The notes under the pieces: model-generated
Database searches by the model: none
Told to the model about the DNA's origin: nothing
What the model saw: only the letters and a program-made list of their open reading frames with translations
Origin: Bdellovibrionales bacterium
Lineage (GTDB): Bacteria; Bdellovibrionota_C; UBA2361; SZUA-149; JAGRAN01
Length of the DNA stretch: 64,000 nt
Direction of reading: 5' to 3'
NCBI GenBank assembly: GCA_020434585.1
Contig: JAGRAN010000032.1
Span: forward strand, 11,013-75,012
Translations under genes and position numbers: made by a program
Part shown: positions 13,729-21,259 of the stretch, piece after piece
Numbering within the stretch: position 1 is the first letter of the stretch
How the letters are laid out: the number at the start of each line of letters is the position of its first letter

Positions 13729-15666
13729 GTGAAGTTAGGTTTCGGCGAAAACATTTCGTCGCTGCGCGCTCAGCGCAATTTGTCTCGCGTCAATCGCGAG
13801 CTTACCGGGGTGTATACACGGCTCTCAAGCGGCATGCGCATCAATACTGCGAGCGATGATGCTGCCGGATTGGCAATCAGCGAAAGTCTAAACAACGATC
13901 AGCGGGTGTTCGGTCAAGGCATTCGAAATCTCAACGACGGGATCAGCCTGCTTAGCATAGCCGACGGTGCCGTCGAACAACTCACAAACATAACCATTCG
14001 TCTTCAGGAGTTGGCAACGCAGGCCTCTAACGGATCTCTGGGCAACAATCAGCGCCAGGCGCTCGACGAAGAAGCTCAGCAGCTTTCTCAGGAGTATTTT
14101 CGCATTGCCCGAACAACGGAGTTCAACGGTCTGAACCTCTTTGACGGATCTGTGGAAGAGATGCACCTGCAGGCAGGCTACGGCGATAACGGCGGAGTGA
14201 CGTCAGATTTGGGTGGTGGAGTTGGCGACGGCACATTCAGCACACCGGTGGATATGTACATCCCTTCAAACACTACCCGCGCCCTAGCCATACAAACTGC
14301 TGACCTGGATGGAGACGGAAACATCGATATGGTTGGAGCTGGTCGTGAAGGTGCGGGTGGGATTTGGATGGCCTTCGTTCGCATGGGCAACGGTGACGGA
14401 ACCTTTGGCGATGAAACAATTTACGAGGTGGCTAACGGCGTTGCCAGCGTCCGCCTGGGTGACATCAACAACGATGGCAATTTAGATATTATTACCAGCG
14501 GTGTAAATTTAACAGATCAGGATGTTAGTTATCGATTTGGAAACGGGGATGGGACGTTTGGTGAGCTGATCACGATCGGACTTGGGATGGGTGCGGGCAA
14601 TACCTCGTACGGTGCGGAAGTGGGCGACTTCAATGGAGACGGCAATCTTGATATCGTGACGAATGACAACGTCGGAAATACCTATTTGCTTACAGGAAAC
14701 GGAACAGGAGGTTTTGTCGAGACGCATCCAATACCGAACCTCGGCGGCTCGGTTCACGCTCAATACGGCGTGGGCGATATGAATGGGGACGGTATCGACG
14801 ACATCGTTGCCGCGTATGAAAGTGTAGGAGGGAATACGGACCTAGACGTGTACTTCAGCAACGGCGACGGTACGTTTACCTTCAATCAGACAATTGGCAT
14901 CGGCAATGCGGGAATTATCTCAACCACGGCACCTCCATTGCTGGTAGATTTTAACAATGATGGTGCGCTGGATGTGCTGGCCGGCGACGGAGTTGGCTAC
15001 GATGCGCATGTCTTGTTGAATGACGGATCAGGCACTCTAGGTTCGCCAATCGATTTGGGCGGTATAAACGCAGGCTATGAAGCGGCGGACTTCAACGGAG
15101 ACGGCAACCTTGATGTCGCACTGCTCAACACCACAGACACGAGCATTTATCTCGGGGATGGAGAAGGGAACTTTAGTTTGAGTGACAATATTTCCTACTC
15201 TTTTGCCGGACTGCTTATCGGTGTAGGGCCTACGGCTGCCGATGTAAATAACGACGGCGTAACTGATCTAATCGCCCCCGACGGGAATATGTCGGGAGCT
15301 GGGGGAACAATAGAGATCTATATTGGAAACAAAGTAAGCGGAATTTCACCGCTTGAGGATTTCGATTTAGGGACTTTGGCTGGAGCCAAGCAAGCACTGC
15401 CTCTGTTCCAAAAGACTCTGACCAACTTGACGCTGCAGCGGGGAGAGATCGGTGCATTTGAAAGCAGGCTAGATTCTGCGGTTGGAGTGCTGGCTCAGAC
15501 GACCGAGAACCTTGCTGAAGCTGAGTCGCGCATCCGCGATGCGGACGTCGCCCAAGAGGCTGCCGACCTGGTCCGCTTATCCATAATCCAGGAAGCGGCA
15601 GTATCAATCGTCGGTTCGGCAAATCAGCAGTACTCCGTCGCTCTGGGTCTACTTGACCAAGGGTAG
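13729..15666 (+). CDS. fliC: flagellin with a seven-repeat FG-GAP propeller insert (645 aa)
   Basis: GTG start. The N-terminus (SSLRAQRNLSRVN...LSSGMRINTASDDAAGLAISE...NLNDGISLL...EFNGLNLFDGS) and the C-terminus (LQRGEIGAFESRLDSAV...ESRIRDADVAQEAADLVRLSIIQEA...ANQQ) are classic flagellin D0/D1. The centre (aa ~160-535) is FG-GAP repeats. Confidence 0.9.
   Translation: MKLGFGENISSLRAQRNLSRVNRELTGVYTRLSSGMRINTASDDAAGLAISESLNNDQRVFGQGIRNLNDGISLLSIADGAVEQLTNITIRLQELATQASNGSLGNNQRQALDEEAQQLSQEYFRIARTTEFNGLNLFDGSVEEMHLQAGYGDNGGVTSDLGGGVGDGTFSTPVDMYIPSNTTRALAIQTADLDGDGNIDMVGAGREGAGGIWMAFVRMGNGDGTFGDETIYEVANGVASVRLGDINNDGNLDIITSGVNLTDQDVSYRFGNGDGTFGELITIGLGMGAGNTSYGAEVGDFNGDGNLDIVTNDNVGNTYLLTGNGTGGFVETHPIPNLGGSVHAQYGVGDMNGDGIDDIVAAYESVGGNTDLDVYFSNGDGTFTFNQTIGIGNAGIISTTAPPLLVDFNNDGALDVLAGDGVGYDAHVLLNDGSGTLGSPIDLGGINAGYEAADFNGDGNLDVALLNTTDTSIYLGDGEGNFSLSDNISYSFAGLLIGVGPTAADVNNDGVTDLIAPDGNMSGAGGTIEIYIGNKVSGISPLEDFDLGTLAGAKQALPLFQKTLTNLTLQRGEIGAFESRLDSAVGVLAQTTENLAEAESRIRDADVAQEAADLVRLSIIQEAAVSIVGSANQQYSVALGLLDQG
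14206..15333 (+). repeat. seven protein-level FG-GAP repeats inside the flagellin gene
   Basis: Seven Ca-loop motifs are spaced about 50-55 aa apart: DLDGDGNID, DINNDGNLD, DFNGDGNLD, DMNGDGIDD, DFNNDGALD, DFNGDGNLD, DVNNDGVTD. Each follows a G-(D/T/S/E)-G-(T/G/N)-(F/L) turn: GDGTF (x4), GTGGF, GSGTL, GEGNF. Confidence 0.85.
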
Positions 15667-15718
15667 GAACTCGATCCAAGTGCTGGCGGAGTGCTGAGCT
15701 TAAGTTTAAACTCTGCGT

Positions 15719-20083: not shown

Positions 20084-20454
20084 ATTGGCCTTTAGTGTTG
20101 ATTTTGGCCAGCTTGGGGGCCTTTTTTCTGGTTTATTATTTGCGCCATCGGGGCGAGCGAAGCGACGAGCAGCTTAACGAACACTGGCAGCGTATCCAGC
20201 AGGGAGCGTTGATTCTTGACGTTCGCACAGCCCAAGAATTTTCTCAGGGGCATATTGAGGGAGCATTAAACATTCCGCATAACGAGATCGAGCAGCGGAT
20301 TGCGGAGCTCGGCCCTGACAAGTCGAGGATTGTCGTGGCCTACTGCGCGGTTGGCGGGCGTTCCGAAAAGGCGAAGCAGCAGCTGCTGGCCCACGGCTTT
20401 AAGCAGGTCTACAATGCTGGAGGATATATCGATTTGCTTAACAGCAAGAGCTAG
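20080..20454 (+). CDS. membrane-anchored single-domain rhodanese (sulfurtransferase)
   Basis: N-terminal TM, then ILDVRTAQEFSQGHIEGALNIP and the active-site loop AYCAVGGRS. The ATGA start/stop overlaps the upstream gene. Confidence 0.85.
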   Translation: MNWPLVLILASLGAFFLVYYLRHRGERSDEQLNEHWQRIQQGALILDVRTAQEFSQGHIEGALNIPHNEIEQRIAELGPDKSRIVVAYCAVGGRSEKAKQQLLAHGFKQVYNAGGYIDLLNSKS

Positions 20455-21259
20455 GTGGCGCAGCTTGTCGTACGAATTTATAGAAGATTACAGTCACTGG
20501 ATTTCGGCAGCGGCACTGATACTTCTGCTGTTTTGGGAAACCGCTGTACCTTTCTTTGCCAGCTTTTTTGCAAGTAAATCGGAGAGAGCGATCCACTGCG
20601 GAAGGAATGTTTTGTTGGGGCTGCTAAATGCCTTGATGATTTCCGGATTGTTTGTCGGCAGTTGGGTTTGGGCGGCTGAAACTTCAGAGAACATACACCT
20701 AGGCTTTTTCTATTTGCTCGGCCTCGATGGATGGATTCATGCCTGCTGCAGCATCCTGCTCATGGATTTCTGGACTTATTGGTGGCACCGGATGAACCAT
20801 CGTGTTGCCTTTTTCTGGCGCTTCCATCAGGTGCATCATTCCGACAGGAAAATGGACGTCACTACTTCGTATCGCTTTCATCTGGGAGAAATATTTCTCT
20901 CTTCGCTGTTTCGAACTGGGCTTATTTTACTTTTTGGAATTAAGTTGTGGCACTTAGCGGCCTACGAGGCATTTATGTTTCCGATTGTTATGTTTCACCA
21001 TGCCAACGTCGGTGTGCCCAAGGAAATTGATCGCCTGCTGCGGCTCGTTATCGTTACTCCGGAAATGCACAAGGTGCATCATTCAAACTTTCAGCCGGAA
21101 ACTGATTCAAACTATACTTCGATGCTCTCTATTTGGGATAGGTTGTTTCGCTCCTTTAAGCTGTCTTCCGACTCCCATGGAATTGCATTCGGACTGGAAG
21201 GGCCGGAGCGAGAACACAAAGCGCTCAACGAAATGCTAAAAGCGCCGTTCGGGTCTTAG
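20414..21259 (+). CDS. fatty-acid hydroxylase / sterol-desaturase superfamily membrane protein
   Basis: His boxes are WWHRMNH, FHQVHHSD, MFHHANV and HKVHHSN. The start is uncertain: ATG 20414 overlaps the rhodanese gene, and an in-frame TTG at 20465 is the alternative. Confidence 0.8.
   Translation: MLEDISICLTARARWRSLSYEFIEDYSHWISAAALILLLFWETAVPFFASFFASKSERAIHCGRNVLLGLLNALMISGLFVGSWVWAAETSENIHLGFFYLLGLDGWIHACCSILLMDFWTYWWHRMNHRVAFFWRFHQVHHSDRKMDVTTSYRFHLGEIFLSSLFRTGLILLFGIKLWHLAAYEAFMFPIVMFHHANVGVPKEIDRLLRLVIVTPEMHKVHHSNFQPETDSNYTSMLSIWDRLFRSFKLSSDSHGIAFGLEGPEREHKALNEMLKAPFGS

What the first reader, a model, noticed from the sequence alone, without database searches (positions are those of the whole stretch)
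13729..21259. Flagellin heads a tightly packed co-directional string: SGNH hydrolase, unknown polytopic protein, GT-C, rhodanese, fatty-acid hydroxylase
Seen: I find no convincing terminator hairpin in the 52 nt between the flagellin stop (15666) and the next start (15719). The downstream genes are tightly coupled. The gap at 16849/16891 is 41 nt, the overlap at 18482-18501 is 20 nt, an ATGA overlap sits at 20080-20083, and the hydroxylase start lies at or overlaps the rhodanese end.

Established: flagellin modification genes commonly sit next to flagellin genes.

Inference: this unusual enzyme set is co-expressed with the propeller flagellin and may modify it or a sheath or lipid around it. 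The set combines a membrane GT-C, an acyl-esterase or transferase fold, a sulfurtransferase and a di-iron hydroxylase. It has no Maf or pseudaminic/legionaminic-type enzymes. The 536-aa polytopic protein has no family I can name.
Basis: partly seen in the sequence, partly recalled or inferred. Interest (0 to 1): 0.6.

Follow-up and report, generated by a model that had tools for sequence, protein, structure and literature searches.

The report
Flagellin inserted beside envelope-modification genes
A flagellin gene carrying a beta-propeller insert sits, with no terminator, in front of five tightly packed membrane-enzyme genes. The closest relatives keep those enzyme genes without the flagellin, so the pairing looks like a lineage-specific accident rather than a flagellin-modification system. 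The 'unknown' 536-aa enzyme belongs to a large unnamed family that resembles the vitamin K-dependent carboxylase.

Summary
Six co-directional ORFs (13729-21259) are packed as described, and no intrinsic terminator follows the flagellin stop.

The functional inference does not hold.
- In the closest relative (L093/L001, 52-87% aa identity) the region is collinear with window 9701-29955. The SGNH gene there directly follows a 221-nt divergent intergenic region.
- That relative has no flagellin and no fatty-acid hydroxylase. A second relative (L002) also lacks the SGNH and rhodanese genes.
- Five other FG-GAP flagellin loci carry none of these enzymes.
- The 536-aa family occurs in at least 112 GTDB species, including phyla that lack flagella. 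No flagellin lies within 10 kb in 78 of those loci.

The conserved block continues downstream with Wzy_C, a porin-like protein, a second GT-C (PMT_2) and SGNH/AlgX. A polyprenyl-phosphate-sugar-synthase-like GT2 lies upstream. Together these look like a periplasm-facing envelope-glycoconjugate modification locus.

New annotations:
- The 533-aa protein has a GT-C fold.
- The 536-aa protein belongs to a family of 1829 clusters with no Pfam model. Its only long structural match is gamma-glutamyl carboxylase (GGCX), its invariant Lys213 aligns with catalytic Lys218, and relatives are fused to or adjacent to DCC1-like oxidoreductases.

Read-through from the flagellin remains plausible in this genome only.

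The parts
6562..7323 (+). GT2 glycosyltransferase resembling polyprenyl-phosphate-sugar synthases, a likely donor supplier for the GT-C enzymes
   Evidence: Pfam Glycos_transf_2 E 4e-22. Best NCBIfam matches are AglJ, PpgS and dolichyl-phosphate hexose transferase, all below cut-off.
9701..11278 (-). 525-aa protein of unknown function, part of the collinear block
   Evidence: No Pfam hit. 58% identical homolog at the same position in L093.
11306..13300 (-). 664-aa secreted protein (weak TraU similarity), divergent from the flagellin. In relatives it is divergent directly from the SGNH gene.
   Evidence: Pfam TraU E 1.2e-5, below cut-off. 79% identical homolog at L093:7143-5197, 221 nt from the SGNH gene.
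13301..13728 (.). 428-nt region upstream of the flagellin with no recognisable sigma-28 promoter
   Evidence: No match of 6/8 or better to GCCGATAA. L011 flagellins have a perfect one.
13729..15666 (+). Flagellin with a seven-bladed FG-GAP beta-propeller outer domain. It is a lineage-specific indel at this site.
   Evidence: Pfam and NCBIfam. Seven DxDxDGxxD motifs. More than 120 full-length homologs. Absent at this site in L001/L093 and L002.
15667..15718 (+). 52-nt spacer without an intrinsic terminator or promoter-like site
15719..16849 (+). Membrane-anchored SGNH/GDSL hydrolase or acyltransferase, predicted periplasmic. One N-terminal TM helix, GDS 121, DxxH 349.
   Evidence: 64% identical ortholog in L001/L093.
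16891..18501 (+). 536-aa polytopic protein, member of a large unnamed family with a GGCX/HTTM-like fold and invariant Lys213
18482..20083 (+). 533-aa GT-C fold glycosyltransferase of an unnamed subfamily, with invariant Asp31 in the first extracytoplasmic loop
   Evidence: AF2 pLDDT 83. Foldseek hits ALG12, STT3, AftD, DPY19, ArnT, PglB. Invariants.
20080..20454 (+). Membrane-anchored single-domain rhodanese with active-site CAVGGR
   Evidence: Pfam Rhodanese E 5e-19. Motif at 89. TM 3-21. Present in L001/L093, absent in L002.
20414..21259 (+). Membrane di-iron fatty-acid-hydroxylase-superfamily enzyme with three His boxes. Absent in both relatives.
   Evidence: Pfam FA_hydroxylase E 5e-29. 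His boxes. No homolog in L001, L002 or L093.
21256..22965 (-). Convergent Wzy_C protein (O-antigen ligase / polymerase / O-oligosaccharyltransferase family), conserved in all relatives
   Evidence: Pfam Wzy_C E 2e-15. Orthologs in L001, L002, L093.
23143..23949 (+). 268-aa secreted, porin-like protein, part of the conserved block
   Evidence: Weak TorF-family porin hit. 70-78% identical orthologs.
23946..25913 (-). Ser/Thr protein kinase, part of the conserved block
   Evidence: Pfam Pkinase. Orthologs.
26666..28099 (-). Second GT-C glycosyltransferase (PMT_2 / ArnT-like)
   Evidence: Pfam PMT_2 E 3e-7. Orthologs in L001, L002, L093.
28143..29327 (-). SGNH / AlgX-like acyl-modifying enzyme
   Evidence: Pfam Lipase_GDSL_2 and ALGX. 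Orthologs.

Best explanation
The five genes after the flagellin are SGNH, a GGCX-like polytopic enzyme, GT-C, rhodanese and a membrane hydroxylase. They form one edge of a roughly 20-kb, lineage-specific locus that modifies a cell-envelope glycoconjugate or lipid on the periplasmic face of the inner membrane.

Proposed mechanism (inferred):
- A GT2 makes a polyprenyl-phosphate sugar.
- Two GT-C enzymes transfer it to a periplasmic acceptor.
- A Wzy_C protein ligates or polymerises.
- SGNH/AlgX-type enzymes add or remove acyl groups.
- The GGCX-like enzyme, with a thiol/sulfur partner (rhodanese here, DCC1-like elsewhere), carries out an oxygen- or quinol-dependent step on an unknown substrate.

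The FG-GAP flagellin gene is a separate, self-contained unit. In this lineage it lies between the divergent 664-aa gene and the SGNH gene. Because it lacks a terminator, it probably reads through into the string. That coupling is an accident of gene order, not a flagellin-modification system.

Shown: gene content, folds, collinearity and the flagellin indel. Inferred: the substrate, the chemistry and the read-through.
For: Flagellin is an indel:
- L093/L001 are collinear with window 9701-29955 at 52-87% aa identity. They have only 221 nt between the 664-aa homolog and SGNH, with no flagellin and no hydroxylase.
- L002 keeps the 536-aa gene + GT-C + Wzy_C + porin-like + kinase + 193-aa + PMT_2 + SGNH/AlgX, but no flagellin, SGNH, rhodanese or hydroxylase.
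- The other FG-GAP flagellin loci L010, L011, L012, L175 and L176 lack the enzymes. So do 80 generic flagellin loci.

The 536-aa family is not flagellum-linked:
- It is found in 112 GTDB species, including Flavobacteriales, Cyclobacteriaceae, Myxococcota, Chloroflexota and Actinomycetota.
- No flagellin lies nearby.
- Its neighbours are enriched in Asn synthase, methyltransferases, GT2/GT1, Polysacc_synt_2 and Wzy_C/Wzz.

Enzymes:
- GT-C fold.
- Polyprenyl-phosphate-sugar-synthase-like GT2.
- PMT_2, Wzy_C and four SGNH genes in the window.
- Catalytic motifs intact.
- N-in single TM anchor on SGNH, which implies a periplasmic domain.

GGCX-like enzyme.

Terminator: none after the flagellin.
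Against: - No substrate or product is known, and no nucleotide-sugar biosynthesis genes lie in the string.
- Outside the three close Bdellovibrionales relatives, the 536-aa family is not linked to this GT-C, SGNH, rhodanese or Wzy_C. The 'pathway' is therefore supported only by short-range synteny among related genomes.
- The GGCX similarity is weak at sequence level (hhalign E 0.009-0.056 over 22-24 columns; no Pfam HTTM hit). It is modest at fold level (TM 0.31-0.34, Foldseek E 0.04-0.36).
- With only 52 nt upstream, the string in this genome may depend on flagellin transcription. That would be real co-expression.
- If the flagellum is sheathed, as in Bdellovibrio (own knowledge), an outer-membrane or lipid modification could still affect the flagellum indirectly.
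Confidence: 0.6

Rival explanations
1. First reader's view. The string is a flagellin-headed operon whose enzymes modify the propeller flagellin itself, or a sheath or lipid that surrounds the filament.
For: - Same strand, 52-nt gap, no terminator, no promoter-like site before SGNH.
- The closest flagellin ortholog does have a terminator, so its loss here could be adaptive.
- Bdellovibrio-type flagella are sheathed (own knowledge).
Against: - Synteny is not conserved in either direction.
- Homologs of the 536-aa gene occur in non-flagellated phyla.
- The GT-C and SGNH active sites are predicted to face the periplasm (GT-C by fold, SGNH from the topology), whereas flagellin is exported from the cytoplasm through the type III channel. 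Known flagellin glycosylation and methylation is cytoplasmic (established knowledge).
- No sigma-28 promoter was recognised upstream.
Confidence: 0.1
2. The GGCX-like enzyme is a vitamin K/quinol-dependent protein- or peptide-modifying enzyme, for example a carboxylase or oxygenase. It acts on a secreted protein or natural-product intermediate. The neighbouring genes (rhodanese as redox or sulfur partner, hydroxylase, SGNH) tailor the same non-glycan substrate.
For: - Nearest fold is GGCX.
- Invariant K213 aligns with catalytic K218 (K218 role: bioRxiv 10.1101/2025.02.09.637231).
- DCC1-like thiol-disulfide oxidoreductase is fused in P0269 and adjacent in 5 of 72 loci. Canonical HTTM proteins show the same pattern (bioRxiv 10.64898/2026.08.19.745780, which also cites the bacterial carboxylase MloH).
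- The L003-5 neighbourhood has Cupin_8 x2, Asp/Arg hydroxylase and sulfotransferase x2.
Against: - No precursor peptide or obvious protein substrate is encoded in the string.
- In Bdellovibrionales relatives the gene is always translationally coupled to a GT-C glycosyltransferase and embedded among Wzy_C, PMT_2 and SGNH genes.
- Many other homologs sit in polysaccharide-type clusters.
Confidence: 0.2
3. Assembly artefact: the flagellin was joined to this locus by mis-assembly of a metagenome bin.
For: - The window comes from a MAG.
- Flagellin termini are conserved repeats between paralogs. A second flagellin lies at 33424-34881.
- One gene elsewhere in the window has aberrant GC.
Against: - Both flanks of the flagellin (the 664-aa gene and SGNH) are neighbours in the relatives. 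The flagellin is therefore a clean insertion between adjacent genes, not a junction of two loci.
- GC and GC3 of the flagellin are in the local range.
- There are no flanking repeats.
Confidence: 0.03

Closest known systems
Flagellin glycosylation islands (Campylobacter/Helicobacter Pse/Leg + Maf; Pseudomonas aeruginosa a-type island; Aeromonas)
   Same: Enzyme genes lie immediately next to a flagellin gene. The surface-exposed flagellin domain is a plausible target.
   Different: - Known islands encode cytoplasmic nucleotide-sugar pathways and cytoplasmic transferases (Maf, GT-A/GT-B), and they travel with flagellin genes.
- Here there is no sugar-nucleotide pathway and no Maf.
- The enzymes are membrane-embedded and periplasm-facing.
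- The linkage is not conserved.
[quoted passage not shown]
   Same: - Polytopic N-terminal domain plus extracytoplasmic C-terminal domain.
- GGCX is the only long structural match.
- The YF-AG--KL motif places the invariant Lys on GGCX Lys218.
- Fusion and adjacency to DCC1-like thiol-disulfide oxidoreductases.
   Different: - No Pfam HTTM or NCBIfam match, even at E = 10, in 21 members.
- No PDB sequence hit.
- TM-score is only about 0.3.
- The C-terminal domain is different.
- Genomic context is mostly glycan-type clusters.
- Activity is untested.
ArnT / PMT / PglB-type GT-C enzymes with polyprenyl-phosphate-sugar synthases (ArnC-ArnT; PpgS-Rv3779)
   Same: - GT-C fold.
- Invariant Asp in the first extracytoplasmic loop.
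- A second PMT_2 GT-C and a PpgS/AglJ-like GT2 in the same locus.
   Different: - The 533-aa protein matches no Pfam GT-C family. Only 11 sequence homologs were found.
- The acceptor is unknown.
Two-component glycan O-acyl modification systems (PatA/PatB, AlgI/AlgJ/AlgX, OafA AT3-SGNH)
   Same: - A membrane-anchored periplasmic SGNH gene is translationally coupled to a polytopic membrane protein gene (8-nt overlap in L001).
- An AlgX-like SGNH lies in the locus.
   Different: - The polytopic partner is neither MBOAT nor AT3 by sequence or fold.
- The SGNH partner is missing in L002.
Flagellins with elaborate outer domains (flagellinolysin, giant flagellins)
   Same: Conserved D0/D1 termini flank a large folded insert displayed on the filament.
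   Different: - The insert is a seven-bladed FG-GAP propeller with Ca-binding-type motifs.
- I found no description of it in the papers searched.

Membership tests
Flagellin (FliC family) | N-terminal and C-terminal D0/D1 helical regions | tested here: met
   Flagellin_N 130 bits and Flagellin_C 57 bits, both above cut-off. Best NCBIfam hits are flagellins, 184 bits, below the equivalog cut-offs.
Flagellin glycosylation / modification island | Modification genes conserved next to the flagellin gene in related genomes | tested here: not met
   Flagellin is absent from the collinear locus in L093/L001 and L002. Five other FG-GAP flagellin loci lack the enzymes.
Flagellin glycosylation / modification island | Cytoplasmic transferase (Maf or GT-A/B) and nucleotide-sugar (Pse/Leg-type) biosynthesis genes | tested here: not met
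   No such Pfam or NCBIfam families in 13729-21259. The enzymes are membrane proteins.
Flagellin glycosylation / modification island | Flagellin actually carries the modification | not testable with these tools
   Needs mass spectrometry of the flagellin.
GT-C glycosyltransferases (533-aa protein) | GT-C fold: polytopic N-terminal module with conserved architecture | tested here: met
   Foldseek against PDB: ALG12 E 7e-6, then STT3, AftD, DPY19, ArnT, PglB, ALG3, Pmt4. All are GT-C, probability 1.00.
GT-C glycosyltransferases (533-aa protein) | Conserved acidic residue in the first extracytoplasmic loop | tested here: met
   D31 is invariant in 11 homologs, in loop 22-58 after TM1.
GT-C glycosyltransferases (533-aa protein) | Match to a curated GT-C sequence family (PMT_2, ArnT, STT3 and others) | tested here: not met
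   No Pfam or NCBIfam hit. No PDB sequence hit to a GT-C.
HTTM / vitamin K-dependent carboxylase superfamily (536-aa protein) | Match to the Pfam HTTM profile | tested here: not met
   No Pfam hit at E <= 10 in any of 21 members. No PDB sequence hit with 21- or 137-sequence profiles.
HTTM / vitamin K-dependent carboxylase superfamily (536-aa protein) | Fold similarity to GGCX | tested here: inconclusive
HTTM / vitamin K-dependent carboxylase superfamily (536-aa protein) | Catalytic lysine (GGCX Lys218) in a conserved membrane motif | tested here: met
   hhalign aligns YFFAGVQK213L with YFIAGVKK218L. K213 is one of five invariant columns in 137 sequences. GGCX sequence verified against PDB. K218 role from bioRxiv 10.1101/2025.02.09.637231.
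HTTM / vitamin K-dependent carboxylase superfamily (536-aa protein) | Association with a DCC-type thiol-disulfide oxidoreductase | tested here: met
   P0269 is a DCC1-like + family fusion. DCC1-like is the +1 neighbour in 5 of 72 loci. Canonical HTTM-DCC1 fusion described in bioRxiv 10.64898/2026.08.19.745780.
HTTM / vitamin K-dependent carboxylase superfamily (536-aa protein) | Quinol- and O2-dependent epoxidase or carboxylase activity | not testable with these tools
   Needs biochemistry.
SGNH/GDSL hydrolases (376-aa protein) | Block I GDS nucleophile and block V DxxH | tested here: met
   GDS at 121 and DQCH at 349. Profile hits are sub-threshold only.
Rhodanese | Rhodanese domain with active-site Cys loop CX4R | tested here: met
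   Pfam 69 bits against a cut-off of 22. CAVGGR at 89.
Fatty acid hydroxylase / membrane di-iron superfamily | Three histidine boxes in a polytopic protein | tested here: met
   Pfam 102 bits against a cut-off of 31. HRMNH, HQVHH and HKVHH. OlsE equivalog not reached, 65 against 475 bits.

The most novel reading that the evidence does not exclude
The 536-aa protein represents a large, unannotated bacterial clade of GGCX-like enzymes: 1829 clusters at 50% identity, in at least 112 species across more than 10 phyla. These would be quinol- and oxygen-dependent membrane enzymes with a catalytic lysine and a thiol or sulfur redox partner (DCC1-like, or rhodanese here). They would perform a so far unknown extracytoplasmic modification of envelope glycans, lipids or secreted proteins. 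In this lineage the enzyme has come under the transcriptional control of a propeller flagellin gene.
Probability: 0.25. Interest if true: 0.65.

Novelty: new variant of a known kind. Interest (0 to 1): 0.35.

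Why it matters
The proposed new type of flagellin modification system is not supported, which saves follow-up effort.

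Two things remain useful.

First, the 'unknown polytopic protein' can now be placed, tentatively, next to the vitamin K-dependent carboxylase. It has an invariant lysine at the catalytic position and recurrent coupling to thiol-disulfide oxidoreductases. That gives a testable biochemical hypothesis for a widespread family that has no Pfam or NCBIfam model.

Second, the locus is a natural example of a highly expressed structural gene landing, without a terminator, in front of an envelope-modification operon. That may couple envelope chemistry to flagellar expression in one lineage.

The FG-GAP propeller flagellins themselves are numerous. In the literature I could search they are undescribed.

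Tried and rejected
- **FG-GAP / 536-aa link.** L003-5 has an FG-GAP/T9SS protein directly upstream. Only 4 of 976 ORFs in 78 loci are FG-GAP-like, and only one sits at position -1. Rejected.
- **Sigma-28 promoter upstream of the flagellin.** No match of 6/8 or better, although the scan finds a perfect site in L011.
- **Mobile-element signature.** No flanking direct or inverted repeats; the only repeats are the propeller blades. No GC/GC3 anomaly.
- **Alignment of intergenic DNA between window and L001/L093.** No meaningful similarity.
- **Sequence-level links of the 536-aa family.** None found against Pfam at E <= 10, NCBIfam, or PDB sequences with 21- and 137-sequence profiles.
- **AFDB50 fold search.** The library was unavailable.
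- **Metagenome scan with an FG-GAP flagellin alignment.** It returned generic flagellins matched only in D0/D1, so it was not a test of FG-GAP flagellin neighbourhoods. It did show none of the string's genes in 0.58 Mb of flagellin loci.
- **Look-up of P0120.** No record.
- **Rfam.** Nothing in or near the finding.
- **Fusion partners of the 536-aa family.** Apart from DCC1-like, only PGA_cap and PA14, which are uninformative for chemistry.

Full report
**Source and layout.**
The window comes from a Bdellovibrionales metagenome-assembled genome; the 536-aa protein is locus tag KDD66_04045. All six ORFs of the finding are present at the stated coordinates.

- The flagellin (13729-15666, GTG start) has Flagellin_N, seven FG-GAP_3 repeats and Flagellin_C. 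It carries seven DxDxDGxxD motifs, so it is a seven-bladed propeller outer domain.
- The next gene (15719-16849) gives only weak SGNH profile hits. It has the GDS and DxxH catalytic blocks and a single N-terminal membrane anchor.
- The 536-aa (16891-18501) and 533-aa (18482-20083) polytopic proteins have no Pfam or NCBIfam match.
- The rhodanese (20080-20454) has a membrane anchor and a CAVGGR active-site loop.
- The last gene is a fatty-acid-hydroxylase-superfamily protein with three His boxes.

**Junctions.**
- a 52-nt gap after the flagellin;
- a 41-nt gap at 16850-16890;
- a 20-nt overlap at 18482-18501;
- an ATGA overlap at 20080-20083;
- a hydroxylase start at ATG 20414 (41-nt overlap with the rhodanese) or TTG 20465 (10-nt gap).

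No terminator-like site lies in 15667-15718. The best hairpin there is no more stable than shuffled sequence (z = -1.2), has no U-tract and ends on the ATG.

**Is the flagellin functionally tied to the string?**
The comparative evidence says no.

The 536-aa protein has two close relatives (53% and 50% identity). Contigs L001 and L093 come from the first relative's lineage.
- L093 is collinear with window 9701-29955 at 52-87% amino-acid identity; the overlapping part of L001, whose contig ends within the 664-aa gene homolog, is collinear as well. Shared genes are: 525-aa gene, 664-aa gene, SGNH, 536-aa gene, GT-C, rhodanese, Wzy_C, porin-like protein, kinase, 193-aa gene, PMT_2, SGNH/AlgX and a K+ channel.
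- In them the SGNH gene starts 221 nt from the divergent 664-aa gene. There is no flagellin, and no hydroxylase between rhodanese and Wzy_C.
- The second relative (L002) has the 536-aa gene and GT-C directly after an unrelated divergent gene, followed by the same downstream block. It has no flagellin, SGNH, rhodanese or hydroxylase.

So the conserved core is the 536-aa gene plus GT-C and the downstream Wzy_C…SGNH/AlgX block. The flagellin and the hydroxylase are lineage-specific indels.

From the flagellin's side:
- The propeller flagellins are a numerous family, with more than 120 full-length hits at 40-45% identity.
- The closest ortholog (68% identity, L010) is followed by a strong terminator hairpin and an unrelated convergent gene.
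- A genome with four tandem copies (L011) and three further loci (L012, L175, L176) have none of the string's genes.
- Nor do 80 generic flagellin loci from metagenomes.

The flagellin shows no composition anomaly and no flanking repeats. Both of its flanks are neighbours in the relatives, so it is a clean indel rather than an assembly join.

**Distribution of the 536-aa family.**
- A profile search finds 1829 cluster representatives.
- A genome scan finds 112 species, including Flavobacteriales, Cyclobacteriaceae, Myxococcota, Chloroflexota, Planctomycetota, Acidobacteriota and Actinomycetota. Several of these groups lack flagella as a rule (own knowledge).
- No flagellin lies within 10 kb in 78 non-redundant loci.
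- Immediate neighbours are heterogeneous but rich in glycan-cluster functions: Asn synthase, methyltransferases, GT2, GT1, Polysacc_synt_2, Wzy_C/Wzz.
- One eye-catching context has an FG-GAP/T9SS protein directly upstream in L003-5. It is not general: 4 FG-GAP-like ORFs among 976.

**What the two unknowns are.**
The 533-aa protein models well (pLDDT 83). It matches only GT-C enzymes in the PDB (ALG12, STT3, AftD, DPY19, ArnT, PglB). It has an invariant Asp31 in the first extracytoplasmic loop.

The 536-aa protein models very well (pLDDT 92.7, pTM 0.91).
- The top five Foldseek hits are all GGCX, with probability 0.77-0.94 but E 0.04-0.36 and TM about 0.3.
- Profile-sequence alignment picks out one motif, YFFAGVQK213L against GGCX YFIAGVKK218L, with pairwise E 0.056 and 0.009. 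The GGCX sequence was verified against PDB entries.
- K213 is one of only five invariant columns in 137 diverse members.
- Lys218 is the residue critical for GGCX catalysis (bioRxiv 10.1101/2025.02.09.637231).
- One family member is fused to a DCC1-like thiol-disulfide oxidoreductase, and DCC1-like genes are the downstream neighbour in 5 of 72 loci. Bona fide HTTM proteins are likewise fused to DCC1-like domains (bioRxiv 10.64898/2026.08.19.745780).
- Against membership: no Pfam HTTM hit even at E = 10, and no PDB sequence hit.

I therefore treat 'remote GGCX/HTTM-like enzyme' as probable, about 0.6-0.7, and not proven.

**Most likely function of the string.**
The wider locus holds:
- a GT2 most similar to polyprenyl-phosphate-sugar synthases (AglJ, PpgS; sub-threshold);
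- two GT-C enzymes;
- a Wzy_C protein;
- four SGNH genes, one AlgX-like.

GT-C enzymes use lipid-linked donors on the extracytoplasmic face, and the SGNH protein is anchored N-in with its domain outside. The best-supported reading is a periplasm-facing envelope glycoconjugate or lipid modification locus. The flagellin gene has been placed in front of it in one lineage.

Flagellin is exported from the cytoplasm through the flagellar type III channel, and known flagellin modifications are made in the cytoplasm (established knowledge). These enzymes are therefore poorly placed to modify it.

Read-through from the flagellin is nevertheless plausible here. The ancestral 221-nt promoter region is gone, only 52 nt remain, and no promoter-like site was detected. 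An indirect effect on a flagellar sheath cannot be excluded.

**Verdict.**
- The anatomy is real.
- Co-transcription is possible but unproven.
- The proposed flagellin-modification role is not supported by synteny or topology.
- The main positive result is the tentative placement of a large unannotated family next to GGCX, and confirmation of a new GT-C subfamily.
- Interest is modest.

Noticed in passing
window 13729-15666; P0034-P0152: FG-GAP (VCBS) propeller flagellins are a numerous family. More than 120 full-length homologs at 40-45% identity were listed, and databases label them 'VCBS repeat-containing protein'. I found no description of propeller outer domains in the flagellin-diversity papers searched.
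   Followed up: partly
L011:6282-13703: Four tandem FG-GAP flagellin genes are separated by 1 nt each. A perfect sigma-28 -10 box (GCCGATAA) lies upstream of the first. The same genome (GCA_030431715.1) has at least two more solitary copies (L012, L176).
   Followed up: partly
L010:1990-2060: The closest ortholog of the window's flagellin (68% identity) has a 14-bp GC-rich hairpin (-28 kcal/mol, z = -3.5) right after its stop codon. The window's gene has none.
   Followed up: yes
window 30558-32072 (-): The M17 leucyl aminopeptidase gene has GC 0.655 and GC3 0.85, against about 0.50 for its neighbours. Segments 1-2000 and 4001-6000 are also GC-rich. This may be foreign DNA or a chimeric stretch in the MAG.
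   Followed up: no
window 33424-34881 (-): A second, solitary flagellin (485 aa) has no FG-GAP insert. It lies between a dihydrouridine synthase gene and an iron/cobalamin-type ABC transporter.
   Followed up: no
window 40308-40428 (-): A cobalamin riboswitch (84 bits) lies upstream of the TonB-dependent receptor and ABC importer operon at 35795-40253. This is ordinary.
   Followed up: no
L003-L005: 5996-14676: In a Bacteroidota-type contig the 536-aa homolog is flanked by an FG-GAP/ASPIC/T9SS protein, two Cupin_8 (JmjC-like) genes, two sulfotransferases and an Asp/Arg beta-hydroxylase. If the family is GGCX-like, this recalls the Gla, beta-hydroxy-Asp and sulfation trio of animal clotting factors (own knowledge).
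   Followed up: partly
P0269, P0258, P0185: Fusions of the 536-aa family: an N-terminal DCC1-like thiol-disulfide oxidoreductase (P0269), a C-terminal PGA_cap domain (P0258) and an N-terminal PA14 domain (P0185).
   Followed up: partly
window 7332-8420 (-), 8622-9692 (+), 15719-16849 (+), 28143-29327 (-): Four membrane-anchored SGNH/GDSL genes lie within 22 kb. Two have weak matches to Leptospira LA_2486/LA_2490-family SGNH models. The relative L093 has one SGNH upstream, not the divergent pair.
   Followed up: partly
L012:4337-7087 (-): About 3 kb upstream of another FG-GAP flagellin lies a 916-aa methyltransferase + Glyco_trans_1_2 protein with a faint Maf_flag10_N hit. It is a more conventional candidate for flagellin modification in that genome.
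   Followed up: no
window 16797-16827: A terminator-like hairpin with a T-run lies inside the 3' end of the SGNH coding region, 30 nt before its stop. Its significance is unknown. In L001 the SGNH and 536-aa genes overlap instead.
   Followed up: no
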